From assembly GCF_013315695.1 (NCBI RefSeq), contig NZ_CP054353.1: a stretch of DNA of 64,000 bases; one strand, given 5' to 3'. The stretch is from Escherichia coli. GTDB taxonomy: Bacteria > Pseudomonadota > Gammaproteobacteria > Enterobacterales > Enterobacteriaceae. A model generated the notes under the pieces. It saw only the letters and a program-made list of their open reading frames with translations. It did not search any database and was not told the origin of the DNA. Positions 2,493 through 20,715 of this stretch are shown piece after piece. Numbering within the stretch: position 1 is the first letter of the stretch; each line of letters opens with the position of its first letter. Made by a program: the position numbers and the translations under genes.

Positions 2493-4084
<1,592 letters not shown>

Positions 4085-4149
4085 AAGTTATGCGTATTCT
4101 CGTATCAGACCAGGCAGGGTAAACAGACGCTTCCCCTGCCTGCATCCGA

Positions 4150-5319
<1,170 letters not shown>

Positions 5320-5497
5320 TTACAAATCTCTGCCTGAGTCCAGAAAGGCTTAATGCATCAGCAGCATTCCTCGCCTGTTTGCAACCGCGTAAGGTCATTC
5401 ATCTGCATATGTGCTGCAACAATCTGGCGAGCAGACAAGCACACTCCCATGAGACGCAGCGCGCGTTATTCTACGTGAAAACGGATTAAACGGCAGG

Positions 5498-7438
5498 TTA
5501 AACCGAGTATCTTTGTGAATATTTTTTCACGTTAGTATCAAGTGGCTGTGAGGACGCGAAAAAATCCCCTTGCCCACCTGTAACACCGCGCTGAATCAGG
5601 GTCTGCCACTCGCTTCGCGAACGCACGCCGGTGGCGTAAACCTGGGTGCTGGTCCCGGAGCAGGCTTCCACCAGGCTTTGAACCAGCAGCTGGTTCTCCG
5701 TTCGCTTCTCAATGTTTCTGACCAGCCCCGGATGGAGCTTGAGTAACTCAACATTAAGTTCTTTGATCCAACTGGTGCTTACCAGCGTCAAACCAGCCTG
5801 GTTGACGGCTACCCGTACCCCTAAAGCATTCACTAAACGAATAACAGGTTGTAAGCGACTGATATGTTGACCTACATCGGCCTCTGCAAGTTCAATAATT
5901 ATGCGTTTTCGTTGCGATCTTTCACATTGCATTAACGTATCGCGCAGCCAACGCTGAAAACGCGGGCGAATCAGCGACTCAACGGTAACCTGAATCGCCA
6001 GATTTTCCTCCGGCCAGTAACGCAATAGTGGAATCAGACGGCTGATTTGCAGGCGGTCATACTCTTCCGATAAGCCAAACTGCAAGACCATCGGCATATA
6101 CTCCGCCGAGCTAACCTCTTCATTACCATCGAAGATGCGGCACATGAGTTCGCGATGATGAACCTGACCTTCGCGAGTAACCGCCGGTTTTTGATAAAGG
6201 CGCGGGCCGCCGCGACTCAGCATTTGCTCGATAAGCGTACGCCAGCGAACATTACCGCGTCCTTTTTCAGGCAACGAGTCATCGTAAATAGCCCAGCTAT
6301 TGCCGCCCTGCAATCCCGCATTACGCGTGGCAGACTCTGCATGTTCCATTACCTGCTCGGTATCCTGACCACTACGCCAGGCACAGATACCAATGTGGAT
6401 CATATCGTCGCGATCGAGCATTTTATTGTTCGGCAAGGTATCGACGGCTTTGATTAACTGACTGGCGATGCTCTCTGCCTCTTTTAACGTCCGGTGCGGT
6501 AACAGCGCAGCAAAATCACTGCGGTGGTAACGCGCCAGCAGTGCGCCAGGGTAGCGCATCATAAATGTCGATAGCAGATTCGTCAGAGAGAAGAACTGTT
6601 CTTCAACCTGGCTGTGCCCCCAGGTATCACTCAACATATTGAAATCCGGCAGACGAATCATCATCACGATCCCGTGGGTACCTACTTTCTCCTGATCTTC
6701 CAGTAACGTTGCTAACTGATTATCGAAGAAGAGTCGGTTATTGAGGCCGGTTTTCATGTCCTGGGCGGCATAAGAGCGGATCAGCGTATCAAGACGGCTG
6801 TGTTGTTCGCGTGCGTTCTGAATTTCACAAAGCAGCGTATCCAGCGCACTGCTGGTTCTGGGCGGCCATTCATAGATGGTTCCCAACACATTAGAGCCAC
6901 GCTCACCGTTTAAGATACGAGTAGCCCGGGTTTCCAGCAATTCTTGCCCGGCAAGTTGCCGTTGTAACCAGCGTACCGCCAGGAAGAGCATAAGAATGAT
7001 AAAGCCAATCGCCCCCGTGAGCGGCGCGGTAGTCATTAAAGAATGGAAATAGTTGCCCATCGGATCCTGATAAACCAGACGCAGCGACATCCCCGGATGC
7101 TTTATCAACGGAACGCTCAGTTCGCGAAACAGATCGCTGGTGCCAACCGGACGATAACTACCATTTCTGGCCAGGGTATATACCTGTTTATCACTATGCA
7201 GCAGGTCTACACGAACGATATCTGCTGACATCATTAATTCGGTAATTTGTGGCCTTAATGCGCTGAAGTCATTCGACACAAGATGGGTATCAATCGCCGT
7301 CGCCACCGCCTGAACGCGATGACTAAACTTATACTGAATGGCGTTGTAGAAACTTAGCGAACAGCCCAGCAAAGTCACAAAAATTGTTAACCCGGTGAGC
7401 AGCGTAACAAAGGCCGAAAATTTCGTCGTTAATCTCAT
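5498..7438 (-). CDS. csrD: CsrD, degenerate GGDEF-EAL protein that targets CsrB/CsrC sRNAs for decay
   Basis: 646-aa translation with N-terminal transmembrane segments and GGDEF/EAL-like domains; matches remembered CsrD (YhdA). Confidence 0.92.
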   Translation of the reverse strand: MRLTTKFSAFVTLLTGLTIFVTLLGCSLSFYNAIQYKFSHRVQAVATAIDTHLVSNDFSALRPQITELMMSADIVRVDLLHSDKQVYTLARNGSYRPVGTSDLFRELSVPLIKHPGMSLRLVYQDPMGNYFHSLMTTAPLTGAIGFIILMLFLAVRWLQRQLAGQELLETRATRILNGERGSNVLGTIYEWPPRTSSALDTLLCEIQNAREQHSRLDTLIRSYAAQDMKTGLNNRLFFDNQLATLLEDQEKVGTHGIVMMIRLPDFNMLSDTWGHSQVEEQFFSLTNLLSTFMMRYPGALLARYHRSDFAALLPHRTLKEAESIASQLIKAVDTLPNNKMLDRDDMIHIGICAWRSGQDTEQVMEHAESATRNAGLQGGNSWAIYDDSLPEKGRGNVRWRTLIEQMLSRGGPRLYQKPAVTREGQVHHRELMCRIFDGNEEVSSAEYMPMVLQFGLSEEYDRLQISRLIPLLRYWPEENLAIQVTVESLIRPRFQRWLRDTLMQCERSQRKRIIIELAEADVGQHISRLQPVIRLVNALGVRVAVNQAGLTLVSTSWIKELNVELLKLHPGLVRNIEKRTENQLLVQSLVEACSGTSTQVYATGVRSRSEWQTLIQRGVTGGQGDFFASSQPLDTNVKKYSQRYSV

Positions 7439-7589
7439 CCTTGTGTTAACTCCGATAGTGAGGAAGCGGGCATACTAGCAAATCAGATTTATCTCGCAAT
7501 TTATTGCGCTTCATCGGCTTTGCTTTTCCATTAGCGAGTATAGTCTTCAGAAATTATTTTCCAATCCATCATGCACATGAGGACCACTT

Positions 7590-8564
7590 ATGCAGGCGTT
7601 ACTTTTAGAACAGCAGGACGGCAAAACTCTCGCATCAGTACAGACTCTGGACGAAAGTCGCCTGCCGGAAGGCGATGTCACGGTTGATGTTCACTGGTCG
7701 AGCCTGAACTACAAAGATGCGCTGGCAATTACCGGTAAGGGAAAAATCATCCGTAATTTTCCGATGATTCCTGGGATCGATTTTGCCGGAACTGTACGCA
7801 CCAGCGAAGATCCGCGTTTTCATGCCGGTCAGGAGGTGTTACTCACTGGCTGGGGCGTTGGTGAAAACCACTGGGGTGGGCTGGCGGAGCAGGCGCGAGT
7901 GAAAGGTGACTGGCTGGTTGCCATGCCGCAAGGGCTGGACGCGCGTAAAGCAATGATTATCGGTACTGCCGGTTTTACCGCCATGCTGTGTGTGATGGCG
8001 CTGGAAGATGCCGGTGTTCGCCCGCAGGACGGCGAGATTGTCGTAACGGGTGCCAGTGGTGGCGTCGGCAGTACCGCCGTGGCGCTGCTGCATAAGTTGG
8101 GTTATCAGGTCGTTGCCGTTTCCGGTCGCGAAAGTACCCATGAATATCTGAAAAGTTTAGGAGCCAGCCGTATTCTCCCTCGCGATGAGTTTGCCGAATC
8201 CCGTCCTCTGGAAAAACAAGTCTGGGCTGGGGCAATTGACACCGTTGGCGACAAAGTGCTGGCAAAAGTGCTGGCGCAAATGAATTACGGCGGCTGCGTG
8301 GCGGCCTGTGGTCTGGCGGGTGGTTTTACTCTGCCAACCACGGTCATGCCATTTATTCTGCGTAATGTCCGTTTGCAAGGGGTGGATTCAGTAATGACGC
8401 CACCAGCACGCCGCGCACAAGCCTGGCAGCGACTGGTCGCCGATTTACCGGAATCATTCTATACCCAGGCGGCAAAAGAGATATCTCTGGCAGATGCACC
8501 GAAGTTTGCCGAGGCCATCATTAATAACCAGATCCAGGGTCGCACGCTGGTGAAGGTTAACTAA
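7590..8564 (+). CDS. acuI: Acryloyl-CoA reductase / quinone oxidoreductase-like (MDR superfamily)
   Basis: 324-aa translation MQALLLEQQDGKTLASVQTLDESRLPEGDVTVD... with Gly-rich nucleotide-binding motif (VTGASGGVGS); matches remembered YhdH/AcuI. Confidence 0.92.
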   Translation: MQALLLEQQDGKTLASVQTLDESRLPEGDVTVDVHWSSLNYKDALAITGKGKIIRNFPMIPGIDFAGTVRTSEDPRFHAGQEVLLTGWGVGENHWGGLAEQARVKGDWLVAMPQGLDARKAMIIGTAGFTAMLCVMALEDAGVRPQDGEIVVTGASGGVGSTAVALLHKLGYQVVAVSGRESTHEYLKSLGASRILPRDEFAESRPLEKQVWAGAIDTVGDKVLAKVLAQMNYGGCVAACGLAGGFTLPTTVMPFILRNVRLQGVDSVMTPPARRAQAWQRLVADLPESFYTQAAKEISLADAPKFAEAIINNQIQGRTLVKVN

Positions 8565-8600
8565 CCATTTAGCAAGGATTAATAAGAGAGGGAACTCATT

Positions 8601-9431
8601 TTGAAATCATTATTCAATCGGTTAACGGGAAAAGCGGTTAGCCGGACAGCTTTCGTCGAACATCTTGGTCATGAAGTTGTACAACATCATCCAAACTGGA
8701 AAGTCATGATTTCGACTGACCATAAATTGATGCGCATTGATACGGGTCACCAAACGGTGGAAATCACTCTTGATGATGCCTACAAACGTTATCAAGCCGC
8801 ACCAGACCCGCTGGAAGAAGTGGCTGCAGATATGCTGAAACAGCTTGCAGAAATGCTGCCGACCGGGCGCTGTATTGTTCCGGTGATTAAAGAAAAAGCC
8901 TGGCTGGATACCGTTCGCCAACAGCTTAGCCAGTATGAATCTGATCCAGAGATCCTCAACGCCTCGCTGGATTTTGCCTGGGAAGACTTTAACGATGAGT
9001 TAATTATCTTGTTTGCTGAAGATGGTAGCGAAACCATGCGCTATCTGATGCGCTACGAAGTGACCATTGACCGCGAACAAGCCATCAATAATTTGAAGCA
9101 AATATTGCCGGAAGTTTCGGCTGAAATCGTTGATACAGGCGCAAACGCTGGAAAAGTTGCCGTTATCTCCGCAGGGGGTACTTATGAGCCCAGTCTGATG
9201 CTCATTGACGATCTTTGGGTGCAATCACCCGATCCTGAATGCGGCGACCTGTTAGTGACTGTTCCCTCCAGAGGAAAACTGTTTTTCACCTACAATGATC
9301 AGCCAGCAAATCTCAGCGCATTACGACAGTTAACAGAACAATGCTTCCGTGAGGATGACCATCCTCTGACAACACAGATATTCATCCGCCGTAACGGTCA
9401 CTTTTATCCCTGGGTAGAAACCTTGCATTAA
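8601..9431 (+). CDS. Hypothetical protein, 276 codons, function unknown
   Basis: Long uninterrupted ORF 36 bp downstream of acuI, TTG start preceded by a purine-rich stretch (agagaggg); first in-frame ATG is at 8706. Composition is protein-like, with some rare codons (AGA, ATA, CGA). A hairpin plus T-tract lies about 65 bp downstream. I do not recognise the product. Confidence 0.45.
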   Translation: MKSLFNRLTGKAVSRTAFVEHLGHEVVQHHPNWKVMISTDHKLMRIDTGHQTVEITLDDAYKRYQAAPDPLEEVAADMLKQLAEMLPTGRCIVPVIKEKAWLDTVRQQLSQYESDPEILNASLDFAWEDFNDELIILFAEDGSETMRYLMRYEVTIDREQAINNLKQILPEVSAEIVDTGANAGKVAVISAGGTYEPSLMLIDDLWVQSPDPECGDLLVTVPSRGKLFFTYNDQPANLSALRQLTEQCFREDDHPLTTQIFIRRNGHFYPWVETLH

Positions 9432-9494
9432 CGCAACCTCCGTCATGCTTGAAAAAGCTTGTCGGAGTATGTGATGAATGCTGCAAACTCACCG

Positions 9495-9527
9495 AAGCCG
9501 ATTTTGCCACCAAATCGGCTTTTTTAT
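9495..9527 (+). terminator. Candidate intrinsic terminator downstream of the 276-codon ORF
   Basis: Inverted repeat gccgattt / aaatcggc around a short loop, followed by ttttttatt. Confidence 0.5.
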
Positions 9528-9989
9528 TGTCACGCGGCAAATTCTGAATGCATCACATAGCCGCACTGCCGCCTGACAAAACAGTTTACCTTCTGCAAAA
9601 TGGGGGGAATAATCTGATTTTATTTGATTACAAATTAACCACTTAAACCTATTTAATGCTGAGCATTGTCAGTCGGTTGATTTTGCGTGCTTTAGCATTC
9701 ACATCTATCCAGACGATGCAGTGAAAATTGGGTAATCCCCAGCAACCGCTGCGTAATGTCGTCTATCTTGTCGCGATCCTGGCATCCCTACATTATTTGT
9801 GGTCTGTGAAGATTATCTCATTGCAGCCCCTCATCTTCGCAGGGCTGGCTTTACAGCTTTTCACCTTACGTTATAAGAAGTTCCGTCGATGATGGCGCTA
9901 ATTTCGTGAATTGTGCGGCTTGTTGCAAATTACACGGTGTTGAAGGTTATTTACATGTTAGCTGTTGATTATCTTCCCTGATAAGACCA

Positions 9990-10035
9990 GTATTTAGCTG
10001 CCAATTGCTACGAAATCGTTATAATGTGCGACCTC
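9990..10035 (+). promoter_or_regulatory. Candidate accBC promoter, -10 hexamer tataat at 10020..10025
   Basis: Perfect tataat about 270 bp upstream of accB; the accBC promoter is known to sit unusually far upstream of accB. The -35 assignment is ambiguous by eye. Confidence 0.4.
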
Positions 10036-10296
10036 GTCCTCCCTGACGCAGTTTTTGCGCTGCGGAAAAGGTGACATTGGCGCAACGAAGGTATATTTTG
10101 TTTTTTGCCGGAGGATAGCAGCAGATCGCTGCACAATGTCCGTCAAGTCTAACATTGACACTCTGGGGCAAAATAGACCGGCGTCCCGGCCTGCTGGAAT
10201 TTATCGCTATGCATACAGCTGTCGGGGCATACGCTTTACAGACGGCGGTGAAACGCCTGTCACAATCACACTAAACAAAGAGTACGGAACCCACTC

Positions 10297-10767
10297 ATGG
10301 ATATTCGTAAGATTAAAAAACTGATCGAGCTGGTTGAAGAATCAGGCATCTCCGAACTGGAAATTTCTGAAGGCGAAGAGTCAGTACGCATTAGCCGTGC
10401 AGCTCCTGCCGCAAGTTTCCCTGTGATGCAACAAGCTTACGCTGCACCAATGATGCAGCAGCCAGCTCAATCTAACGCAGCCGCTCCGGCGACCGTTCCT
10501 TCCATGGAAGCGCCAGCAGCAGCGGAAATCAGTGGTCACATCGTACGTTCCCCGATGGTTGGTACTTTCTACCGCACCCCAAGCCCGGACGCAAAAGCGT
10601 TCATCGAAGTGGGTCAGAAAGTCAACGTGGGCGATACCCTGTGCATCGTTGAAGCCATGAAAATGATGAACCAGATCGAAGCGGACAAATCCGGTACCGT
10701 GAAAGCAATTCTGGTCGAAAGTGGACAACCGGTAGAATTTGACGAGCCGCTGGTCGTCATCGAGTAA
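10297..10767 (+). CDS. accB: Biotin carboxyl carrier protein of acetyl-CoA carboxylase
   Basis: 156-aa translation [28 protein letters not shown]... with Ala/Pro-rich linker and the biotinylation motif [10 protein letters not shown]. Confidence 0.97.
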
Positions 10768-10777
10768 CGAGGCGAAC

Positions 10778-12127
10778 ATGCTGGATAAAATTGTTATTGC
10801 CAACCGCGGCGAGATTGCATTGCGTATTCTTCGTGCCTGTAAAGAACTGGGCATCAAGACTGTCGCTGTGCACTCCAGCGCGGATCGCGATCTAAAACAC
10901 GTATTACTGGCAGATGAAACGGTCTGTATCGGCCCTGCTCCGTCAGTAAAAAGTTATCTGAACATCCCGGCAATCATCAGCGCCGCTGAAATCACCGGCG
11001 CAGTAGCAATCCATCCGGGCTACGGCTTCCTCTCCGAGAACGCCAACTTTGCCGAGCAGGTTGAACGCTCCGGCTTTATCTTCATCGGCCCGAAAGCAGA
11101 AACCATTCGCCTGATGGGCGACAAAGTATCCGCAATCGCGGCGATGAAAAAAGCGGGCGTTCCTTGCGTACCGGGTTCTGACGGCCCGCTGGGCGACGAT
11201 ATGGATAAAAACCGCGCCATTGCTAAACGCATTGGTTATCCGGTAATTATCAAAGCCTCCGGCGGCGGCGGCGGTCGCGGTATGCGCGTAGTGCGCGGCG
11301 ACGCTGAACTGGCACAATCCATCTCCATGACCCGTGCGGAAGCGAAAGCTGCTTTCAGCAACGATATGGTTTACATGGAGAAATACCTGGAAAATCCTCG
11401 CCACGTCGAGATTCAGGTACTGGCTGACGGTCAGGGCAACGCTATCTATCTGGCGGAACGTGACTGCTCCATGCAGCGCCGCCACCAGAAAGTGGTCGAA
11501 GAAGCACCAGCACCGGGCATTACCCCGGAACTGCGTCGCTACATCGGCGAACGTTGCGCTAAAGCATGTGTTGATATCGGCTATCGCGGTGCAGGTACTT
11601 TCGAGTTCCTGTTCGAAAATGGCGAGTTCTATTTCATCGAAATGAACACCCGTATTCAGGTAGAACACCCGGTTACTGAAATGATCACCGGCGTTGACCT
11701 GATCAAAGAACAGCTGCGTATCGCTGCCGGTCAACCGCTGTCGATCAAGCAAGAAGAAGTTCACGTTCGCGGCCATGCGGTAGAGTGCCGTATCAACGCC
11801 GAAGATCCGAACACCTTCCTGCCAAGCCCGGGCAAAATCACCCGTTTCCATGCACCTGGCGGTTTTGGCGTGCGTTGGGAGTCTCATATCTACGCGGGCT
11901 ACACTGTGCCGCCGTACTATGACTCAATGATCGGCAAACTGATTTGCTACGGTGAAAACCGTGACGTGGCGATTGCCCGCATGAAGAATGCGCTGCAGGA
12001 GCTGATCATCGACGGTATCAAAACCAACGTTGATCTGCAGATCCGCATCATGAATGACGAGAACTTCCAGCATGGTGGCACTAACATCCACTATCTGGAG
12101 AAAAAACTCGGTCTTCAGGAAAAATAA
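10778..12127 (+). CDS. accC: Biotin carboxylase subunit of acetyl-CoA carboxylase
   Basis: Translation from [33 protein letters not shown]... (449 aa), ATP-grasp fold; the ORF-track start at 10739 is an upstream extension overlapping accB. Confidence 0.97.
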
Positions 12128-12218: not shown

Positions 12219-13265
12219 CTAACGGTAGCTTGCAATTTCCGCTTTCAACGCGCTAATTTCAGCATCGCCATCAACAATTCCCAGCTCAAAGCAGTATGTC
12301 TTTGTTTCCCCTGGCTCTATAAAGGGCAGACGCCCCTGCGCTCGTTCTTTATCACGACCGTCAGGAAAACTATTGCTGACCTCCAGCCCCATAACATATT
12401 CACCCGCGCCTAAATTTTTCCAGTGGATAAAGTTGGGTAGCTGCATGGTGTCGAATTTCTCGTAAATTCCCCACCCCAGTTCGGCGTTCACCAGCGCAAC
12501 TTTACTCATCCCCTGACTGTCGCTATTCAACGTGAGATAGTAAACCTGCTCGTCAAAACCGGGCTGTGGGGTACAAATCTCCAGATGACTGGTTAACCCT
12601 TCCGCCGCATGCGGGGTTCGTGGCGTTACGCTTTTAGCCGACAGCAAGATTTCTGCCTGTGGCGATAATAAAGGCCAGCCGTAATTAAAGTGATAAAGAA
12701 TTTGCAGCGGCTGGCGGGTGAAACCATGATTAGTCACCTTGTCTTCAATGCGCAGCACATTTTCGCCATAACGGCAGCGAATGGTCCTTTCCAGCGTCAG
12801 ATTTTCACCGAACAATCGTGTTTCCCGTACTTTGCCATTGATGACAAATTCAATGCCGTCGTCGGTCCGTTCTGTGCGATACCCCACCTCTTCTGCTGGA
12901 GTCGCAGCCAAACGCCCGTGTAACCCCAGCGTTTCTCCGTTATCCTCACAGGGCGTGCCAATGTAGCTAAGTCCGCAGGTAGTCAGTAACCCCGCGTAGA
13001 AGCTACGTAAAAACCCGTTGCCCTGAGACTCAAAAAAAGCGGGGGCGACAATGCCGTTGGGGGTGATAAAAGAGAGCGCAGTATCCTTGTAGCTGGCCCA
13101 TGCAATATCCAGCGCGCGATCTTTTACCACCGTAAATGCCAGTCCCGCACCAGTACGGACATCAAACGCTTCTGTCCCCTTTGCTCTGCCACTACGTAAC
13201 TCATAGTGTTTAATTCCGGCAACCTGCGAGAGATCGCCAATCCACGACCAAATTTCGTTTTTCAT
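12219..13265 (-). CDS. Island protein, 348 aa; possibly aldose-1-epimerase (mutarotase)-like, assignment tentative
   Basis: Complete ORF whose stop/start overlaps the start of the downstream kinase gene (13262..13265), i.e. operon-coupled. No signal peptide or transmembrane segment seen. Family call is impression only. Confidence 0.65.
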   Translation of the reverse strand: MKNEIWSWIGDLSQVAGIKHYELRSGRAKGTEAFDVRTGAGLAFTVVKDRALDIAWASYKDTALSFITPNGIVAPAFFESQGNGFLRSFYAGLLTTCGLSYIGTPCEDNGETLGLHGRLAATPAEEVGYRTERTDDGIEFVINGKVRETRLFGENLTLERTIRCRYGENVLRIEDKVTNHGFTRQPLQILYHFNYGWPLLSPQAEILLSAKSVTPRTPHAAEGLTSHLEICTPQPGFDEQVYYLTLNSDSQGMSKVALVNAELGWGIYEKFDTMQLPNFIHWKNLGAGEYVMGLEVSNSFPDGRDKERAQGRLPFIEPGETKTYCFELGIVDGDAEISALKAEIASYR

Positions 13266-14224
13266 TGTGCTGCTTCCCGAATGGACATGTCATGGCGCTG
13301 GATGAACGCTTCGATTTCCGCAAGGCGAGACGTTCCCTCCATTGGGCCACGTCGGGTTACCGCCAGTGCACCGCAGGCGTTGGCATATTGTAATGCCCGA
13401 TGGGCGTCAAACCCTAGCTGGCGGCAGGCAATCCACGCGCCACCAAAACAGTCTCCCGCACCGGTCGGGTCAACTTCTTCCACCGGATAGCTCTCAACAT
13501 GAAACTGCTCATTCGCGGAGTAGTAACTGGCACCTTGATTGCCGCGCTTCACAATCACCTCTTTAACACCTTCTTCAAGAAAACCAGCGATTGCACGCTC
13601 CGGTGTCGAGTGTGGCGACAAGAGCAACACTTCTCCCTCGCTGGGCATATAGATATCTGTTAACTCAAGAACAAAGTGGAGGGCGTCACGCATTTCTGGA
13701 ATATCGAGCATCTCTTTCCGAATATTAGGGTCAAAAGAAATAACGCCACCATTCTCTTTTACAATGGTTACCGCTTTCTTTACTGCGTCTACCATATGGA
13801 ATGAAAACAGGGATGAACCCATAATATGAAAATGGGTACAGTCCTTCAGAATATTTTCATCAACATGCTGCGCCGATAATTTACCGCAAGCGGCATTCTT
13901 GATATTAAAAATAAAATCGCGATCGCCAGAGTTATGATAAGTAACAAAGGCACTCCCGGTAGCTTCCAGAGGTAAGACTGAAATCCCCCTGATATCCACA
14001 CCGTCAGCAGCCAGACGATGTATATTAATATCACCAAAGCCATCATTCCCCACACAGCTAATGATGCCGCACGGAACGCCAAGACGTGTCACCTGGTCGA
14101 TAAAAATAGCGGGTGCGCCACTGGGATAAGGGCCGTTCCAGATACCTGGTTGATCAAATGGCTGGCCGATTTTACTCGCCATAATTTCAACCAGAATTTC
14201 TCCAATTGTGAAGACCTTACTCAT
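13262..14224 (-). CDS. pfkB/ribokinase-family sugar (phosphate) kinase, copy 1
   Basis: 320-aa translation with the family's C-terminal signature DPTGAGDCFGGA and an N-terminal Gly-rich substrate region. Confidence 0.85.
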   Translation of the reverse strand: MSKVFTIGEILVEIMASKIGQPFDQPGIWNGPYPSGAPAIFIDQVTRLGVPCGIISCVGNDGFGDINIHRLAADGVDIRGISVLPLEATGSAFVTYHNSGDRDFIFNIKNAACGKLSAQHVDENILKDCTHFHIMGSSLFSFHMVDAVKKAVTIVKENGGVISFDPNIRKEMLDIPEMRDALHFVLELTDIYMPSEGEVLLLSPHSTPERAIAGFLEEGVKEVIVKRGNQGASYYSANEQFHVESYPVEEVDPTGAGDCFGGAWIACRQLGFDAHRALQYANACGALAVTRRGPMEGTSRLAEIEAFIQRHDMSIREAAQ

Positions 14225-14245: not shown

Positions 14246-15235
14246 TTAGCTGCGTTTTCTTTTATTTCTTACGTCAAAATAAACGGCTACAAGAATGACT
14301 AATCCTTTAACCACCATCTGATAGAAATAGGGAACGTTCATTAAGTTCATGCCATTATTAATAACGCCGATGGTTAATGCCCCGATTACCGTCCCCACCA
14401 CGGTTCCATAGCCGCCGTTCAGGCTGGTGCCTCCCAGTACAGCCGCAGCAATAGCATCCAGTTCGTAGCTCAACGCGGAATTCGGTTGCCCGGAATAGAG
14501 GCGTGAGGCGAGGATCATCCCGCTGATACCTGCCAGCACAGCTGTAATCATAAAGACTTTTATTTTCAAGCGGGTGACATTTATCCCTGAATAAACTGCC
14601 GCTTCTTTATTACCACCAGTGATATAAATCTTTCGTCCAAAGGTTGTTTTAGTAAGAATGAAATGGTTAATCAGCAATAAGATAATTAATATCCAGATTG
14701 GAATAGGTATATAGAGAAATTCTCCATTCCCCAGCGCCAGAAAGGCATCATCTTTAATCATGATGGGCATACCATCGGTCACTATATAAGCGATACCACG
14801 GAAGATCCCCATAGTAGCAACGGTGACAATAAACGACGGGATCCCCGCTATAGCCGTCAAGCCACCATTTATCATCCCCAGAGCCAGGGCTGCAATAATG
14901 GATAATGGGACCAATAAAATAAATGGAATTCCCCATGAAGCCCCAAGCGCAGCAAATGTGCCAATCAATGCAATGGTTGAACCAACCGATAAATCAATAT
15001 CGCCAAGCAAAAGTACGTAAGTCATTCCATAGGCGGTAATTGCAATTATCGAAACCTGAAGAATAATATTAGTAATGTTATTGGCGGTAAAAAAACTGTC
15101 ATTAATAAAACTGAACAGAATGATTAACACCACCATTCCACTGAGGATACCGCCATATTGCCTGAAGACTTTTTTAAAATTATTTGCAATGGGAATTTCC
15201 GAAGGTTTCGGACTGGCAAGAGTTTTCTCTGTCAT
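14246..15235 (-). CDS. ABC sugar transporter permease (RbsC-like)
   Basis: 329-aa highly hydrophobic protein with multiple predicted membrane spans; immediately downstream of, and contiguous with, the ATPase gene. Confidence 0.85.
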   Translation of the reverse strand: MTEKTLASPKPSEIPIANNFKKVFRQYGGILSGMVVLIILFSFINDSFFTANNITNIILQVSIIAITAYGMTYVLLLGDIDLSVGSTIALIGTFAALGASWGIPFILLVPLSIIAALALGMINGGLTAIAGIPSFIVTVATMGIFRGIAYIVTDGMPIMIKDDAFLALGNGEFLYIPIPIWILIILLLINHFILTKTTFGRKIYITGGNKEAAVYSGINVTRLKIKVFMITAVLAGISGMILASRLYSGQPNSALSYELDAIAAAVLGGTSLNGGYGTVVGTVIGALTIGVINNGMNLMNVPYFYQMVVKGLVILVAVYFDVRNKRKRS

Positions 15236-16735
15236 TTAACGTACTCCTGTTGCAGCGGTCATTACCTGTGTCTGCGTTAAATTTTCACATGAATAAATAT
15301 CGGCAATCGTTTTATTACGCATTACCACCAGACGATCGCTAAGTGCCATGACTTCTGGCAGTTCAGAGGACACCAGAATAATTGCTGTCCCTGCCGCAGC
15401 CAGTTGACGTATCACGTTATAGATTTCAAATTTTGCGCCGACATCCACTCCGCGCGTTGGCTCATCGAGCAATAAAATACGCGGAGTTTTCTCCAGCCAC
15501 TTCGATAACACGATTTTCTGTTGATTACCGCCGCTCAGTGCTCCCACTGCCTGATGTACAGAACTCACTTTAGTGTTCATTCTGGCAATTGATTGCAGCG
15601 TCTTCGCCTCTTCTTGTCGGTGATTGATAAGTCCTATCCGCGAAGCGTTATATTGAAACGCCACATGGTGCGTGTTCATATTGACGTCGTGCATCAGCAC
15701 TAACCCTTCTTCCTTGCGGTTTTCGGTCACAAAAGCAATGCCATGATCAATAGCCTGTTTGGGATTAGCGATCCTGACTTCCTTACCATCAATCAACACA
15801 GTCCCGTGATACGAAACGAGGCCAAATAGCGCCTTCATCACATCGGAACGCCCGGCCCCCACCAGGCCAAAAAATCCGAGGACTTCCCCCGGACGCACAG
15901 CGAAACTGACCTCTTTAAAAAGCGAAGGATGGGAAAGGTTTTTTACTTCCAGTTTTGCAGGAACATTTTCATCCGGCTTTTCCCCAAGACGTGCTGGCCA
16001 AATATTTTTCATTTCCCGACCAACCATTTGGGCAATCAAATGCTGGATATCACTGTTTTTCTTTTCATGCGTAGCGATATACTCACCGTCGCGGATCACC
16101 GAAATATCATCTGAAATCCGCATAATTTCATCCATGCGATGAGAGATATAAATAACCGCACAACCTCGCTGCTTTAATTTCTCAATAATGTTAAACAGAA
16201 TCTCTGCTTCATTATCACTTAGCGAAGATGTCGGTTCATCCATAATCACGACATCTGCTGCATAGCTTAAGGCTTTGGCAATTTCTACCAGTTGCCTATG
16301 TGCCATCGACATATTGCCGACCATTTCCAGCGGATCCAGTGGGATGCCCAGTTCCGCGAGGAGATTCTGGCAATCTGCGAGCATTTTTTTATCGTTAATA
16401 ATGCCAAAACGTCGCGGTTCATTATTGGCATAAATATTTTCCGCCACGGTCATATTATTACTCAGGCTCAGTTCCTGAAAAATAATCGCAATCCCTAACT
16501 GGCGAGAATGCTGCGGATTATTAATGGTGATGGTTTCACCACGTAGTGTTATCGTTCCCTGGGTTGGCGGATAAACACCGGCGAGTATTTTCATTAATGT
16601 CGATTTACCGGCACCATTCTCGCCTAATAAAGTATGCACCCGCCCTTTACGTAAAGAGAGGGTAATATCTTTTAATGCCTGAACATGACCAAATGTCTTC
16701 GCAATATGCGAAACATCAAGAATAACATCCGTCAT
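15236..16735 (-). CDS. ABC sugar transporter ATP-binding protein with duplicated nucleotide-binding domains (RbsA-like)
   Basis: 499-aa translation with two Walker A motifs (GENGAGKST; GLVGAGRS) and two ABC signature motifs (LSGGNQQK-type), typical of monosaccharide importer ATPases. Confidence 0.9.
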   Translation of the reverse strand: MTDVILDVSHIAKTFGHVQALKDITLSLRKGRVHTLLGENGAGKSTLMKILAGVYPPTQGTITLRGETITINNPQHSRQLGIAIIFQELSLSNNMTVAENIYANNEPRRFGIINDKKMLADCQNLLAELGIPLDPLEMVGNMSMAHRQLVEIAKALSYAADVVIMDEPTSSLSDNEAEILFNIIEKLKQRGCAVIYISHRMDEIMRISDDISVIRDGEYIATHEKKNSDIQHLIAQMVGREMKNIWPARLGEKPDENVPAKLEVKNLSHPSLFKEVSFAVRPGEVLGFFGLVGAGRSDVMKALFGLVSYHGTVLIDGKEVRIANPKQAIDHGIAFVTENRKEEGLVLMHDVNMNTHHVAFQYNASRIGLINHRQEEAKTLQSIARMNTKVSSVHQAVGALSGGNQQKIVLSKWLEKTPRILLLDEPTRGVDVGAKFEIYNVIRQLAAAGTAIILVSSELPEVMALSDRLVVMRNKTIADIYSCENLTQTQVMTAATGVR

Positions 16736-16795: not shown

Positions 16796-17686
16796 TCATT
16801 TACCTGTATAAACGCCGGGTTGTACCGGGATCATTTTTTCTACCGGTTTACCATTGAGGTGATCAACAGCGGCATCAATGGCTTTAGCACCCATTTGATC
16901 GGGATATTGCCGAATCACGGCCGCAAACGTTTTTTCACTGTCAACGGCATCACGCGCTTCTTTCATGCCGTCAAAACCAATGATTTTGATGTTGTCGTTA
17001 TGCGCAGATTTCGCTGCGATAACCGCTGCCAGCGCCGCATCATCACCAAAGCCAAACAGACCATTCAGGTTGGCATTTGCCTGCATAATGTTTTGCGCAG
17101 TCGTTAACGCTTCAGCCCGCGTAATACCAGGCTGTTCAGCAACAATTTTAATATCCGGTGTATCGCTTAACCCTTTCTTAAAACCATCAACGCGCGCAAC
17201 CACCGATTGTAATGCCGGATAAGAAATAATGGCTACAGTACCTTTACCATTCAAAAGTTTGCCCATTAACTTGCCTGCTTCAACGCCTCCCGCGTAGTTA
17301 TCGGTCGCAACATGCGATACGACCGGAACGCCTTCCGCAGCGACGTCGACGGTGATAACGGGAATACCGGCCTTATCGGCTTTAATTATCGCCGCCTGGA
17401 CGCCTTTCGAATCGACCGGAGAGATAATAATGGCATCCACTTTTTTAGTAATAAAATCCTCAACATCAGAAAGTTGTTTGTTTAAATCCTGATTGGCAAT
17501 AGAGACACTTAAATTGACATTGTCTTTTTTTGCCTCTTCTTTCATGGCATTCGCAAGATCAATATAGAAAGGATGTTGCTGTGTTAATAATGACGCACCA
17601 ATTTTATACTCTTTTGCCAACGAGCTTTGCGAGAACAATGCCAGGCTCACCAACATAGCTGAACCAAGTAATTTAATATTTTTCAT
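16796..17686 (-). CDS. Periplasmic sugar-binding protein (RbsB-like)
   Basis: 296 aa with N-terminal signal peptide (MKNIKLLGSAMLVSLALFSQSSLA) and periplasmic-binding-protein-like sequence. Confidence 0.85.
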   Translation of the reverse strand: MKNIKLLGSAMLVSLALFSQSSLAKEYKIGASLLTQQHPFYIDLANAMKEEAKKDNVNLSVSIANQDLNKQLSDVEDFITKKVDAIIISPVDSKGVQAAIIKADKAGIPVITVDVAAEGVPVVSHVATDNYAGGVEAGKLMGKLLNGKGTVAIISYPALQSVVARVDGFKKGLSDTPDIKIVAEQPGITRAEALTTAQNIMQANANLNGLFGFGDDAALAAVIAAKSAHNDNIKIIGFDGMKEARDAVDSEKTFAAVIRQYPDQMGAKAIDAAVDHLNGKPVEKMIPVQPGVYTGK

Positions 17687-17721: not shown

Positions 17722-18603
<882 letters not shown>

Positions 18604-18697
18604 TTACAAAATGAAGAAAGAGAATCTTCACTTTCATTTTGAAAGCAAACTAGCACAGCAAAAGCGGCAAAAAGCGTGATGCATGTCGAATATCATC

Positions 18698-18722
18698 AAA
18701 ATAACTTACAAAAAATAACTTA
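18698..18722. repeat. Tandem direct repeat aaaataactta (two copies, 14-bp register) in the divergent island control region
   Basis: Exact 11-bp repeat at 18698..18708 and 18712..18722, between the divergent aldolase operon and the DeoR-family regulator gene. Confidence 0.35.
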
Positions 18723-18917
18723 ATTTGTTTTTTACTTTGTAAGTGAAACCAATGACACCTCTGCATAAATATGAATATATTCATTTATTTTTCAATGTAT
18801 TAAGCTATTTTCGTTGCGATTTTTGACCCATGATTTTCTTTTCGAATTGTCGATATTATTGAAGGGTAACTTTCAAAGAAAAATACAAGGGGCTATAGTG
18901 TTACGCATTAAAGGCCA

Positions 18918-19748
18918 ATGAAGAGTGTTAACGTGCCGAGAAAATCGTCTAACCTACTGAAACGCAGATTAAAAATTGCAGAAATTGTTGCCGCCCAGGG
19001 TGAAATCAAAGTTGATGACTTATCTGCGCAACTTGGTGTCTCTAGCGTGACGATCCGCGGCGATCTCAGTTATCTGGAGCAACAGGGATATTTAAAGCGA
19101 TCATTTGGCGGTGCTATTGCGACACCACTCTCCTCTGAACCAGAAGCGATACAACCGATCGCGCCGTTGTCTCTGGCACAACAAATGGAAATAGCACGAC
19201 ATTGCGCACGGTTAATTCGGGATCGTGACACGCTATTTCTTGGACATGGGACAATCTGCCGTAAGATCATTCCCTTGCTCAGCGAAGTGAAAAAACTGCG
19301 TCTGATCACCAACGATCCCGAACATGCGCTGCTGGCAAATCAGTTTATTGATGGCGAAATAATACTGGCTGGCAGTGAAATGCTGCGCCCCGATACCGCA
19401 CTGGCCGGAAAACCTCTCGAACAGGCACTTCAGCATTTCACCATTACACATAGCATTCTGGAAATCAGCCATCTGGATGCTGATGGTACTTTAAATATCA
19501 ACGTTCCCAGACTTGCCGCTGCCTGGCAGCTCTGTTTCGATAATGCCCAGAATAAGACGGTTATCGTTGCCGCCGATCCTGCGCCATCAACGGCTGCTAT
19601 CGGGCATTTGCATCAAGCAGAAAATGTGATCGTCAGCCGCAGCATTAACGAACAATATCAGCAACAATTGCAGTCGGCTGATTTCGTTATCCTTTATACC
19701 AGTAATGAGTGCTTTACCTGGTCCAATCGCGAAAGGCTTCAGGAATGA
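18918..19748 (+). CDS. DeoR-family transcriptional regulator
   Basis: N-terminal helix-turn-helix pattern ...IAEIVAAQGEIKVDDLSAQLGVSSVTIRGDLSYLEQQGYLKRSFGGA..., as in GlpR/DeoR proteins; transcribed divergently from the transporter/aldolase operon. Confidence 0.8.
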   Translation: MKSVNVPRKSSNLLKRRLKIAEIVAAQGEIKVDDLSAQLGVSSVTIRGDLSYLEQQGYLKRSFGGAIATPLSSEPEAIQPIAPLSLAQQMEIARHCARLIRDRDTLFLGHGTICRKIIPLLSEVKKLRLITNDPEHALLANQFIDGEIILAGSEMLRPDTALAGKPLEQALQHFTITHSILEISHLDADGTLNINVPRLAAAWQLCFDNAQNKTVIVAADPAPSTAAIGHLHQAENVIVSRSINEQYQQQLQSADFVILYTSNECFTWSNRERLQE

Positions 19749-19758
19749 GAGGGGTTTT

Positions 19759-20715
19759 GTGACAATAACTATCTGCGCTATGGGCGAATTGCTGGCCGAG
19801 TTTTTGTCCCGCAACCCACATCAAAAATTCACTCAGCCTGGGGAGTTTATCGGGCCATTTCCCAGCGGTGCACCAGCAATTTTTGCTGCTCAGGTGGCAA
19901 AACTGTCCCATCGGGCCATCTTCTTCGGATGTGTTGGTAATGATGATTTTGGCCGACTCATTATAGAGCGTCTCCGTCATGAAGGTGTCATTACCGATGG
20001 GATTCACGTTATGAACAATGCCGTCACAGGTACGGCGTTCGTGAGTTATCAAAATCCCCAGCAGCGGGATTTCGTCTTTAATATCCCTAACAGCGCCTGC
20101 GGTTTGTTTACTGCCGAGCACATTGATAAGGATCTGCTTAAACAGTGTAACCATCTGCATATTGTGGGCTCATCGTTGTTCTCATTTCGCATGATCGATG
20201 TCATGCGTAAAGCAATAACGACGATCAAATCGGCTGGCGGAACCGTTTCTTTCGATCCCAATATTCGCAAAGAGATGCTGAGCATTCCTGAAATGGCGCA
20301 GGCCCTCGATTATTTGATTGAATATACGGATATTTTTATCCCCAGCGAAAGCGAACTCCCTTTCTTCGCGCGTCACAAAAATCTGTCAGAAGAACAGATT
20401 GTTAGCGATCTTCTCCACGGCGGCGTAAAACATGTGGCGATAAAACGCGCCCAGCGTGGGGCCAGCTATTACAAGCTTAAAAACGGTACATTACACGCCC
20501 AGCATGTTACAGGCCACGATATCGAAATTATCGATCCAACGGGTGCAGGCGACTGCTTTGGCGCAACGTTTATCACTCTTTTCTTATCCGGTTTCCCGGC
20601 ACACAAGGCGCTGCAATATGCAAATGCCAGCGGCGCGCTCGCCGTAATGCAGCAAGGTCCGATGGAAGGGATATCCTCACTGACTGACATTGAAGACTTT
20701 TTGCAGCAGCACTGA
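19759..20715 (+). CDS. pfkB/ribokinase-family sugar (phosphate) kinase, copy 2
   Basis: Paralogue of the 13262..14224 kinase (shared blocks PSGAPAIF, GSSLFSF, SFDPNIRKEML, DPTGAGDCFG, LQYANA.GALAV). Start set at GTG 19759, just after the regulator stop and a gagagggg stretch; the ORF-track start at 19705 overlaps the regulator. Confidence 0.85.
   Translation: MTITICAMGELLAEFLSRNPHQKFTQPGEFIGPFPSGAPAIFAAQVAKLSHRAIFFGCVGNDDFGRLIIERLRHEGVITDGIHVMNNAVTGTAFVSYQNPQQRDFVFNIPNSACGLFTAEHIDKDLLKQCNHLHIVGSSLFSFRMIDVMRKAITTIKSAGGTVSFDPNIRKEMLSIPEMAQALDYLIEYTDIFIPSESELPFFARHKNLSEEQIVSDLLHGGVKHVAIKRAQRGASYYKLKNGTLHAQHVTGHDIEIIDPTGAGDCFGATFITLFLSGFPAHKALQYANASGALAVMQQGPMEGISSLTDIEDFLQQH

What the first reader, a model, noticed from the sequence alone, without database searches (positions are those of the whole stretch)
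13262..14224. Two paralogous pfkB-family kinases bracket the island on opposite strands
The kinases at 13262..14224 (-) and 19759..20715 (+) share long blocks of identical residues (PSGAPAIF, GSSLFSF, SFDPNIRKEML, DPTGAGDCFG, LQYANA.GALAV) but are clearly diverged. Two kinases plus a bisphosphate aldolase suggests sequential phosphorylation (sugar to sugar-6-P to sugar-1,6-bisP), or two kinases for two related substrates. One copy sits in the transporter operon; the other is co-transcribed with the regulator.
Basis: seen in the sequence. Interest (0 to 1): 0.4.

Follow-up and report, generated by a model that had tools for sequence, protein, structure and literature searches.

The report
Two kinases of E. 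coli tagatose island
The two related sugar kinases are real, but they sit in the already published D-tagatose utilisation island of E. coli: one is the known tagatose kinase, and the other is an intact old paralogue, always paired with the island's repressor, whose job has never been tested.

Summary
ORFs 13262..14224 (-) and 19759..20715 (+) are pfkB-family kinases, 51% identical (E 3e-116), and all the quoted motifs are shared.

The window is E. coli. The 8.5 kb insert between accC and yhdT is the published "tag" island (Ha 2022; Park 2025). It is present in 1,422 of 5,426 complete E. coli genomes.

K1 is TagD, the D-tagatose kinase. Its deletion abolishes growth on tagatose, and its crystal structure is PDB 3IQ0/3K9E.

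However, the published evidence assigns the second step to host PfkA, in a K-12 host where K2 is absent.

K2 is TagK. It is co-transcribed with the repressor TagR, rises only about 2-fold on tagatose, and has never been tested.

New here:
- K2 is neither a recent duplicate nor a pseudo-enzyme. It keeps all catalytic and sugar-contact motifs, dN/dS is 0.14, and its clade has 100% bootstrap support.
- In 19 of 19 loci a K2-type gene directly follows a tagR gene. This holds in ABC-type islands and in the PTS-type tagatose clusters of Klebsiella, Salmonella (STM3251) and Gilliamella.

My reading is that K2 is a low-level tagatose-type kinase serving induction or salvage, not the bulk second phosphorylation. 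This is inferred, not shown.

Verdict: already known, modest interest.

The parts
12219..13265 (-). tagE: DUF4432 / 'aldose 1-epimerase family' protein, last gene of the tag operon; function untested
   Evidence: ORF. Pfam DUF4432, 348.6 bits. RefSeq annotation. Named tagE in Park 2025. Its ATG overlaps the K1 stop codon by 4 nt.
13262..14224 (-). K1 = tagD: D-tagatose kinase (tagatose -> tagatose-6-P), pfkB family
   Evidence: ORF. NCBIfam TagKinase NF049991 scores 413.9 bits against a cut-off of 420. About 99% identical (3 substitutions in 320 residues) to PDB 3IQ0/3K9E. Deleting the EcN orthologue ECOLIN_RS18675 abolishes growth on tagatose.
14246..15235 (-). tagC: ABC transporter permease
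15236..16735 (-). tagB: ABC transporter ATP-binding protein (two ABC domains)
16796..17686 (-). tagA: periplasmic sugar-binding protein
17722..18576 (-). tagY: class II tagatose-1,6-bisphosphate aldolase (GatY-like), first gene of the operon
   Evidence: NCBIfam PRK12737 GatY scores 528.9 bits against a cut-off of 383, and TIGR01858 scores 476.5 bits against 443.55. Published as 63.7% identical to K-12 GatY.
18577..18917 (.). Divergent control region of 341 bp. It holds operator-like repeats tagO2 at 18603-18621 (+) and tagO1 at 18627-18645 (-), and the Preg promoter TTCAAA-16-TATAGT at 18872-18899.
   Evidence: Sequence. Motif search. Promoter scan. Published transcription start sites, operators and CRP site.
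18918..19748 (+). tagR: DeoR-family repressor of the tag operon
   Evidence: Pfam HTH_DeoR and DeoRC. Overexpression blocks induction and growth on tagatose.
19759..20715 (+). K2 = tagK: second pfkB kinase, co-transcribed with tagR; function untested
   Evidence: ORF and start site. NCBIfam TagKinase scores 345.8 bits against a cut-off of 420. 51% identical to K1. dN/dS is 0.14. A tagR gene lies directly upstream in 19 of 19 K2-clade loci.

Best explanation
The two ORFs are old paralogues inside the known D-tagatose utilisation island of E. coli, inserted between accC and yhdT. The gene order is tagE-tagD-tagCBA-tagY on one strand, then tagR-tagK on the other.

Shown by published genetics: the ABC transporter imports D-tagatose, and K1 (TagD) is required for growth on it. 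The authors infer that K1 phosphorylates tagatose to tagatose-6-P. In a K-12 host that lacks K2, host PfkA makes tagatose-1,6-bisP. TagY is the annotated aldolase that would split this into DHAP and glyceraldehyde-3-P.

Inferred here: K2 (TagK) is an intact enzyme under purifying selection. It is not the bulk second kinase. It belongs to a separate clade found only in Enterobacterales and Orbales, and always lies directly downstream of the DeoR repressor gene tagR. The transport and first-kinase module across the divergent promoter can be either ABC plus K1 or PTS plus a FruK-like tagatose-1-P kinase.

K2 keeps the same residues as K1 at positions that align with canonical sugar-contact and catalytic sites. 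I therefore think it is most likely still a tagatose-type ketohexose C6-kinase, made at a low and nearly constitutive level together with TagR.

Its most plausible job is to phosphorylate the first molecules of sugar that enter a repressed cell. That would generate the phosphorylated effector of the DeoR-type repressor or its precursor. It would also salvage free intracellular tagatose. The effector step and the substrate of K2 are untested.
For: Identity of the island:
- The window is 100% identical to E. coli MSB1_4I, and the island is present in 1,422 of 5,426 complete genomes.
- Ha et al. 2022 (PMC9720028) describe the same eight genes, the 51% identity, the Tag- phenotype of the K1 deletion, and the PfkA requirement.
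- Park et al. 2025 (PMC12226905) name the genes, map two transcription start sites, and show that TagR is a repressor. They state that the functions of the reg-cluster genes are unexplored.

K2 is intact and constrained:
- 79 columns are invariant across 50 K1- and K2-clade sequences, including GE..E, PSGAPAI, FDPNIRKEM and DPTGAGDCFG.
- dN/dS between the window and strain EC958 is 0.04 for K1 and 0.14 for K2. K2 is 67-78% identical to its orthologues in Klebsiella huaxiensis, Yersinia and Serratia.

The two lineages are separate:
- The K2 clade has 100% bootstrap support and the Enterobacterales K1 clade 99.9-100%.
- K1 groups with proteins that NCBI names tagatose kinase.

Linkage to the regulator:
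- A tagR gene sits directly upstream on the same strand in all 19 K2-clade loci examined, with a gap of -1 to 22 nt. Seven loci are ABC-type and 12 are PTS-type.
- A tagY aldolase gene heads the divergent operon in 18 of 19.

Same sugar pocket:
- Positions that align with the sugar-contact residues of S. solfataricus KDG kinase (2V78) carry the same residue in E. coli K1 and K2: G, A, F, I, R and D (the contact list is from memory).

Not a sugar-phosphate kinase subfamily member:
- K2 scores 51 bits against TIGR03168, cut-off 216.

Expression:
- tagRK rises about 2-fold on tagatose, while the first three genes of the tag operon rise more than 1000-fold and all six more than 40-fold.
Against: - No experiment addresses K2.
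- The K1 deletion alone abolishes growth and tagatose consumption. Any tagatose kinase activity of K2 in vivo is therefore too low to support growth.
- The published model assumes that free tagatose, not a phosphate ester, is the TagR effector. That assumption is untested.
- In PTS-type clusters uptake already yields tagatose-1-P, so a priming kinase for free sugar is less obviously needed there.
- The K2 clade has replaced several charged residues that are conserved in the TagK clade: D77, R179, E222, E250 and R268 in K1 numbering. It has gained K/R18, E29, H225 and an invariant P110 in a lid strand. These changes could alter specificity.
- One Enterobacter lineage keeps tagR and tagY-tagABC-K1 at the same chromosomal site without K2. 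One Erwinia copy is frameshifted. K2 is therefore dispensable in some backgrounds.
Confidence: 0.5

Rival explanations
1. K2 is the dedicated tagatose-6-phosphate 1-kinase, so the island encodes both phosphorylations (tagatose -> T6P by K1, T6P -> tagatose-1,6-bisP by K2) ahead of the TagY aldolase.
For: - The tag operon itself has no T6P kinase.
- K2-clade genes co-occur with a TBP aldolase in 18 of 19 loci. They are absent from about 60 alpha/beta-proteobacterial loci that use the GatZ-like T6P epimerase route and have no aldolase.
- The PfkA requirement was shown only in K-12, which lacks K2. It was never tested in EcN.
- Ketohexofuranoses are pseudo-symmetric, so a C6-kinase pocket could in principle accept T6P in a flipped orientation (inference).
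Against: - The six-gene operon without K2 is sufficient for growth on tagatose in four laboratory strains, and that growth needs PfkA.
- K2 rises only about 2-fold on tagatose, while the first three genes of the operon rise more than 1000-fold. That is a poor fit for a bulk catabolic step.
- K2 is not in the LacC/FruK/PfkB subfamily: 51 bits against a cut-off of 216.
- There is no net gain of basic residues at pocket-aligned positions, and two conserved arginines are lost.
- The Salmonella STM3254 deletion is negative for both galactitol and tagatose despite an intact STM3251.
- K2 is also kept in PTS-type clusters that already carry a FruK-like kinase for the step to TBP.
Confidence: 0.18
2. 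K2 phosphorylates a different but related substrate. Candidates are another ketohexose such as D-sorbose or D-psicose, tagatose-1-P at C6, or a sugar made inside the cell. The island would then serve two substrates.
For: - The K2 clade is distinct with 100% bootstrap support.
- It scores well below the curated TagKinase cut-off: 345.8 bits against 420.
- It has clade-specific fixed changes near the lid and pocket strands: I42->A, K109->P110, I14->F and I55->F.
- It cannot replace K1 in vivo.
Against: - No additional transporter or enzyme is consistently linked to K2. Its downstream neighbours differ: yhdT in E. coli, garD in Klebsiella and Salmonella, hemN in Gilliamella.
- Positions that align with canonical sugar contacts are identical in K1 and K2.
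- The only conserved partners of K2 are tagatose-pathway genes.
Confidence: 0.22
3. K2 is a redundant or decaying duplicate with no current role, carried along with tagR.
For: - It is absent from one otherwise intact island in Enterobacter sp. BIGb0383.
- It is frameshifted in Erwinia endophytica.
- Pseudogene calls have been reported in two B2 strains.
- Its dN/dS is higher than that of K1.
Against: - dN/dS of 0.14 indicates clear purifying selection.
- The protein is full length, with every catalytic motif, across Enterobacterales and Orbales at 56-81% identity.
- The tight tagR-K2 junction is conserved in 19 of 19 loci.
Confidence: 0.05

Closest known systems
EcN 'tag' island of E. coli Nissle 1917 (tagK-tagR / tagYABCDE; Ha et al. 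2022 iScience PMC9720028; Park et al. 2025 Microb Cell Fact PMC12226905)
   Same: Same eight genes, same order, same insertion site between accC and yhdT, and 97.7-100% nucleotide identity to other E. coli copies. K1 is the orthologue of ECOLIN_RS18675 (tagD) and K2 of ECOLIN_RS18705 (tagK). The 51% identity between the two kinases is stated in the paper.
   Different: Only allelic differences. The window is a non-EcN allele, 100% identical to strain MSB1_4I. The operator tagO1 differs from the published EcN sequence by one base.
Tagatose kinase of alpha- and beta-proteobacteria (S. meliloti TagD, A. tumefaciens; NCBIfam NF049991; cited in Ha et al. as Kohlmeier 2019 and Wichelecki 2015)
   Same: pfkB fold. 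These are ABC-transporter-linked free-tagatose kinases. They are about 51% identical to K1 and 47% to K2, and they group with K1.
   Different: Those systems send tagatose-6-P to fructose-6-P through a GatZ-like epimerase. They have no aldolase and no second kinase. Both E. coli kinases fall below the curated cut-off, K1 only narrowly.
PTS-type tag/gat regulon of Klebsiella and Salmonella (STM3251-STM3256 and the gat genes; Shakeri-Garakani 2004, cited in Ha et al.; PMC7972205; PMC6159554)
   Same: It contains a K2-clade kinase (STM3251-like, 56-59% identical to K2) directly downstream of a DeoR regulator. This pair is divergent from an operon headed by a GatY-type aldolase.
   Different: Uptake is by a fructose-family PTS that gives tagatose-1-P. 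A FruK-like pfkB kinase of 304 aa (STM3254) makes the bisphosphate. There is no K1 and no ABC transporter.
lsrRK / lsrACDBFG of E. coli (from my own knowledge, not tested here)
   Same: A repressor and a kinase are co-transcribed, divergent from an ABC-transporter operon. In lsr the kinase product is the repressor's ligand. This is the mechanistic analogy I propose for tagRK.
   Different: LsrK is an FGGY-family kinase and LsrR is a SorC-type regulator. The lsr operon has no second kinase. No evidence yet shows that TagR senses a phosphorylated sugar.

Membership tests
pfkB / ribokinase-family carbohydrate kinases (PF00294) | Significant match to the family profile over the whole domain | tested here: met
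   K1 scores 144.8 bits and K2 154.7 bits against a gathering cut-off of 25.8.
pfkB / ribokinase-family carbohydrate kinases (PF00294) | GAGD anion-hole and catalytic-Asp motif, and an N-terminal GG-type sugar loop | tested here: met
   DPTGAGDCFG and PSGAPAIF are present in both proteins and invariant across 50 clade members.
pfkB / ribokinase-family carbohydrate kinases (PF00294) | NxxE Mg/phosphate motif | tested here: inconclusive
   Both carry a Ser variant at the aligned position: PSEGE in K1 and PSESE in K2. The Ser is invariant across both clades and the terminal Glu is conserved in at least 90% of each clade. The alignment to the ribokinase NETE motif is from memory.
Tagatose kinase (NCBIfam NF049991, equivalog) | Score at or above the curated cut-off of 420 bits | tested here: not met
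   K1 scores 413.9 bits, just below the cut-off, which is why RefSeq calls it 'sugar kinase'. K2 scores 345.8 bits. For both proteins this is by far the best-scoring family.
Tagatose kinase (NCBIfam NF049991, equivalog) | Required for growth on D-tagatose; product is tagatose-6-P | not testable with these tools
   Literature only. Deleting the K1 orthologue gives a Tag- phenotype. The product was not determined chemically. K2 has never been tested.
Hexose-phosphate kinases LacC / FruK / PfkB (TIGR03168, TIGR03828) | Score at or above the subfamily cut-off (216.4 and 292 bits) | tested here: not met
   K1 scores 46.0 and 41.6 bits. K2 scores 51.2 and 49.0 bits. K1- and K2-clade proteins average only about 19% identity to the FruK-like tagatose-1-P kinases in the PTS-type clusters.
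lsrRK-like repressor plus inducer-making kinase module | Kinase co-transcribed with the repressor and divergent from the transporter operon | tested here: met
   There is a 10-nt gap between tagR and K2 and no room for a promoter. Published dRNA-seq finds only two transcription start sites. The arrangement is conserved in 19 of 19 loci.
lsrRK-like repressor plus inducer-making kinase module | The kinase product is the ligand that releases the repressor | not testable with these tools
   No binding or deletion data exist. The published model assumes free tagatose is the ligand.

The most novel reading that the evidence does not exclude
TagK (K2) is a regulator-linked 'priming' kinase. It would be made constitutively with TagR and convert the first traces of incoming sugar into the phosphorylated effector, or its precursor, that releases the DeoR repressor. 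This would be a tagatose counterpart of LsrK/LsrR. The tagR-tagK pair with the aldolase gene would then be a portable sensing and cleavage core onto which either an ABC+TagD module or a PTS+FruK-like uptake module has been grafted across Enterobacterales and Orbales.
Probability: 0.25. Interest if true: 0.45.

Novelty: already known. Interest (0 to 1): 0.25.

Why it matters
The island is a lineage marker of E. coli phylogroup B2, which includes ExPEC, AIEC and Nissle 1917. It lets these strains grow on the food sweetener D-tagatose, and it is being developed as a tagatose-inducible expression switch. The true inducer, and whether TagK produces it, would decide how that switch can be moved into other hosts. 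The authors note that the plasmid alone does not work in K-12. An answer would also explain why a second kinase is kept next to the repressor in both ABC-type and PTS-type tagatose clusters. As a scan finding, though, it rediscovers a published locus. Only the role of the second kinase is open.

Tried and rejected
- Recent duplication or gene conversion. Rejected: identity is 51%, and the clades separate with 100% bootstrap.
- Pseudo-enzyme. Rejected: all motifs are intact and dN/dS is 0.14.
- Rooting the tree with the FruK-like kinases under Kimura distances. This failed because the distances were saturated and gave NaN, so the bootstraps were meaningless. I redid it unrooted without the outgroup. 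Whether Enterobacterales K1 and K2 are each other's closest relatives stays unresolved (44% bootstrap).
- A Biopython bootstrap run timed out.
- Search for a net gain of phosphate-binding basic residues in K2. None was found at pocket-aligned positions. Most clade-specific charge changes could be paired gains and losses of opposite charge (for example K/R18 with E29, E250 with R268), though E222->H225 and D77, K115 and R179 do not all fit that pattern. They are more consistent with salt-bridge swaps than with a new phosphate site, but I had no 3D coordinates to verify this.
- Operator conservation across ABC-type and PTS-type clusters. CTT[TA]CAAAATGAAAG-like repeats occur in every intergenic region examined. 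The regions are AT-rich and I allowed up to 3 mismatches, so I do not count this as evidence.
- Literature searches for STM3251, STM3252 and ECOLIN_RS18705. No functional data turned up.
- Wichelecki 2015 could not be read.
Only 12 additional K2-clade loci were recovered, so '19 of 19' is a sample and not a census.
Full report
OBSERVATION

The ORF list shows a 320-aa ORF at 13262..14224 (-). It also shows an ORF ending at 20715 (+) whose plausible starts are 19705, 19759 and 19780. BLASTP of the two products gives 159/311 identities (51%), 67% positives and E = 3e-116. Both match Pfam PfkB far above threshold.

Three details need adjusting.
- K1 is the second gene from the left edge, not the outermost. 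A DUF4432 gene (12219..13265) follows it, with a 4-nt ATGA overlap.
- RefSeq annotates K2 from ATG 19780 (936 bp). It also restores an N-terminal strand, M-x-x-x-I-C-T-x-GELL, that every orthologue has.
- The gap between tagR and K2 is only 10 nt.

WHAT THE LOCUS IS

The window is E. coli. The 8.7 kb query is 100% identical to strain MSB1_4I and 97.7-98.8% identical to most other copies. It is present in 1,422 of 5,426 complete genomes, always between accC and yhdT. GC content is 42-51% per gene, against 54-55% for accC, panF and prmA.

The gene content, is:
- a DUF4432 protein;
- pfkB kinase K1;
- an ABC permease, an ATPase and a periplasmic binding protein;
- a GatY-type class II tagatose-bisphosphate aldolase (528.9 bits against a cut-off of 383);
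- and, divergently, a DeoR regulator followed by pfkB kinase K2.

For both kinases the best NCBIfam model by a wide margin is 'tagatose kinase' NF049991. K1 scores 413.9 bits and K2 345.8 bits, against a cut-off of 420.

THE LOCUS IS ALREADY PUBLISHED

Ha et al. 2022 (PMC9720028) describe exactly this 8.5 kb region in E. coli Nissle 1917. It has eight genes in two divergent operons separated by 341 bp. Their main results are as follows.
- The six-gene operon is necessary in EcN and sufficient in K-12, B and W strains for growth on D-tagatose.
- An in-frame deletion of the K1 orthologue alone abolishes growth and tagatose consumption.
- The proposed route is tagatose -> tagatose-6-P -> tagatose-1,6-bisP -> G3P + DHAP.
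- K-12 carrying the operon needs pfkA, but not pfkB, to grow on tagatose.
- All six genes of the operon are induced more than 40-fold by tagatose, and the first three more than 1000-fold. The regulator and second kinase rise about 2-fold.
- They note the 51% identity between the two kinases explicitly.

Park et al. 2025 (PMC12226905) name the genes tagK (K2), tagR, tagY, tagABC, tagD (K1) and tagE. They map only two transcription start sites and predict operators tagO1 and tagO2 plus a CRP site. They show by overexpression that TagR represses the operon. They state that the functions of the reg-cluster genes are unexplored. No tagK mutant exists.

In the window the operators lie at 18603-18621 (+) and 18627-18645 (-). 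The Preg hexamers lie at 18872-18899. K1 also has a structural-genomics crystal structure, PDB 3IQ0/3K9E ('putative ribokinase II'), about 99% identical, with 3 substitutions in 320 residues.

Sequential phosphorylation ahead of a bisphosphate aldolase is the right pathway logic. The evidence assigns the second step to PfkA, in a host where K2 is absent, and K2 is not needed for the heterologous phenotype. The PfkA test was never done in EcN, so a contribution from K2 is not formally excluded. Several facts argue against K2 being the bulk tagatose-6-P kinase.
- It is almost constitutive and expressed at a low level.
- It belongs to the free-sugar TagK lineage. It scores only 51 bits against the LacC/FruK/PfkB model, whose cut-off is 216.
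- In Salmonella, deleting the FruK-like kinase STM3254 abolishes growth on both tagatose and galactitol, even though the K2 orthologue STM3251 is intact.

WHAT I COULD ADD ABOUT K2

(a) K2 is an intact, constrained gene. Across 22 K1/TagK-clade and 28 K2-clade sequences, 79 columns are invariant. They include GE..E, PSGAPAI, RDF.N, GSSL, FDPN.RKEM, P-S and DPTGAGDCFG. Between the window and strain EC958, dN/dS is 0.04 for K1 and 0.14 for K2. At longer range K2 evolves about 1.3-1.5 times faster than K1 but stays 67-78% identical.

(b) K2 is an old, separate lineage. In unrooted NJ trees the K2 clade has 100% bootstrap support and the Enterobacterales K1 clade 99.9-100%. Whether these two are sister groups relative to the alpha/beta-proteobacterial tagatose kinases is unresolved (44%). 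Within the K2 clade, the copies from ABC-type islands form one subclade (95%). The groupings in that subclade match those in the K1 tree: E. coli with K. huaxiensis, Serratia with Yersinia. This fits the two kinases travelling together in ABC-type islands.

(c) The linkage of K2 is to the repressor, not to the transporter. I examined 19 K2-clade loci.
- All 19 have a tagR gene directly upstream on the same strand, with a gap of -1 to 22 nt.
- In 18 of 19 a tagY aldolase gene heads the divergent operon.
- Seven are ABC-type with a K1 gene: E. coli, K. huaxiensis, Y. pseudotuberculosis, S. fonticola, Enterobacter ENT03, Superficieibacter and Budvicia.
- Twelve are PTS-type, with a fructose-family EIIBC and a FruK-like kinase of 304-306 aa: K. 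pneumoniae, S. enterica, Gilliamella, Zophobihabitans, Tatumella, Pseudocitrobacter, Erwinia and Enterobacter Ag1.

About 60 K1/TagK-clade loci from beta- and alpha-proteobacteria behave differently. They have ABC genes, one kinase and a GatZ-like protein, and some have a tagR-like gene. They have no aldolase and no second kinase. The GatZ-like protein is the tagatose-6-P epimerase of the published rhizobial pathway. Ha et al. searched only for loci containing K1 and the ABC genes, so they did not report the PTS-type link.

(d) The sugar pocket looks unchanged. I aligned K2 to S. solfataricus KDG kinase (2V78). The positions homologous to its KDG contacts and catalytic Asp are G34, Y90, Y106, R108, R166 and D258. 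That residue list is from my memory of the structure paper. At these positions E. coli K1 and K2 both carry G, A, F, I, R and D. Four of the six (G, A, R, D) are invariant across both clades. The clade-specific differences are mostly conservative hydrophobic changes in the N-terminal and lid strands (I10L, I14F, M15L, I42A, I55F). There are also charge changes, several of which could be opposite-charge pairs:
- lost in the K2 clade: D77, R179, E222, E250 and R268;
- gained in the K2 clade: K/R18, E29 and H225;
- plus an invariant P110.

I read these as salt-bridge and interface remodelling rather than a new phosphate site. I could not check this on coordinates.

MECHANISM I COMMIT TO

K1 (TagD) is the inducible bulk tagatose 6-kinase. 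This is shown genetically, with the reaction product inferred by the authors. PfkA supplies the second phosphorylation, shown in K-12. TagY is the annotated aldolase that would cleave the bisphosphate.

K2 (TagK) is most likely still a tagatose-type C6 ketohexokinase, produced at a low steady level with TagR. Its role would be to phosphorylate the first sugar that enters a repressed cell. That would yield the phosphorylated effector, or its precursor, of a DeoR-type repressor. It would also salvage free intracellular tagatose.

Two things support this. From general knowledge, DeoR-family sugar regulators usually sense sugar phosphates. From the data here, the tagR-tagK junction is invariant across a swap of transport type. 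The closest analogy is lsrRK.

This part is inference. I put about 0.5 on 'TagK-type free-ketohexose kinase that is not the bulk second kinase', and about 0.25 on the specific inducer-priming role.

Rival explanations and my confidence in each:
- dedicated T6P kinase: 0.18;
- different substrate: 0.22;
- decaying duplicate: 0.05.

Points against my reading:
- the K1 deletion is fully Tag-;
- the authors assume free tagatose is the inducer;
- PTS-type clusters already deliver a phosphorylated sugar;
- one Enterobacter island lacks K2 and tagE, and one Erwinia copy is frameshifted.

VERDICT

The feature is real, correctly described and correctly sensed as a two-step phosphorylation pathway. It is an already characterised locus. 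The only open point is the function of TagK. The comparative result here, a conserved tagR-tagK(-tagY) core shared by ABC-type and PTS-type tagatose clusters, gives a testable hypothesis. Interest is low to moderate.

Noticed in passing
window 19759-19780: RefSeq starts the second kinase at ATG 19780 (311 aa). GTG 19759, with a GAGGGG Shine-Dalgarno, restores a conserved N-terminal beta-strand present in all orthologues. The database start is probably 7 codons too short.
   Followed up: yes
window 12219-13265 (tagE); L010 1750-3060; L015; L004; L027: The last gene of the operon varies. It is a DUF4432 'aldose 1-epimerase family' gene in E. coli, K. huaxiensis, Enterobacter ENT03 and Superficieibacter. 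It is a GatZ/KbaZ-like gene in Serratia fonticola and Budvicia. Yersinia pseudotuberculosis and Enterobacter BIGb0383 have nothing there. The function of DUF4432 in tagatose catabolism is untested. Weak DUF4432 homologues (29% identity) also follow the GatZ-like gene in two Pleomorphomonas loci (L059, L084).
   Followed up: partly
L027 (Enterobacter sp. BIGb0383) 4556-10942: This is a natural variant of the island at the same accC/yhdT site. It has tagR and tagY-tagABC-K1 but no K2 and no tagE, and tagR is followed directly by yhdT.
   Followed up: partly
L043 (Erwinia endophytica) 10001-10938: The K2 orthologue in this PTS-type cluster is split between two reading frames near residue 210-220. 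This is either a frameshift pseudogene or an assembly error.
   Followed up: partly
L012 (E. coli D72) 3337-5613: An IS1A element is inserted in the ABC ATPase gene (tagB) of the island in a pig isolate. Both kinases there remain annotated as intact.
   Followed up: no
L016 (Tatumella morbirosei) 5535-10948: This PTS-type cluster has tagR-K2 but no aldolase gene next to it. The FruK-like kinase gene is the first gene of the divergent operon, and its match covers only 268 of 304 residues.
   Followed up: no
window 18577-18917 and the intergenic regions of L002, L004, L006, L008, L009, L010: Repeats resembling the published TagR operator (CTT[TA]CAAAATGAAAG) occur in the divergent control regions of both ABC-type and PTS-type clusters. 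Examples are CTTACAAAACGAAAG in Gilliamella and CTTTCAAAACGAAGG in Salmonella. The regions are AT-rich and mismatches were allowed, so significance was not established.
   Followed up: partly
protein P0122: One NCBI record carries a 493-aa protein with both PfkB and DUF4432 domains, 99% identical to K1. It looks like a K1-TagE fusion, probably from loss of the K1 stop codon at the 4-nt overlap.
   Followed up: no
window 8601-9431 (+): A 276-aa ORF upstream of accB is annotated only as 'hypothetical protein' in RefSeq (WP_000838294.1). I did not examine it.
   Followed up: no
L023, L024, L029-L032, L035, L036 (Caballeronia, Paraburkholderia): In several Burkholderiaceae the order is tagR-like, then K1-like kinase, then GatZ-like epimerase, with the regulator directly upstream of the kinase. 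The regulator-kinase adjacency seen for K2 may therefore be ancestral to the whole family rather than an Enterobacterales invention.
   Followed up: partly
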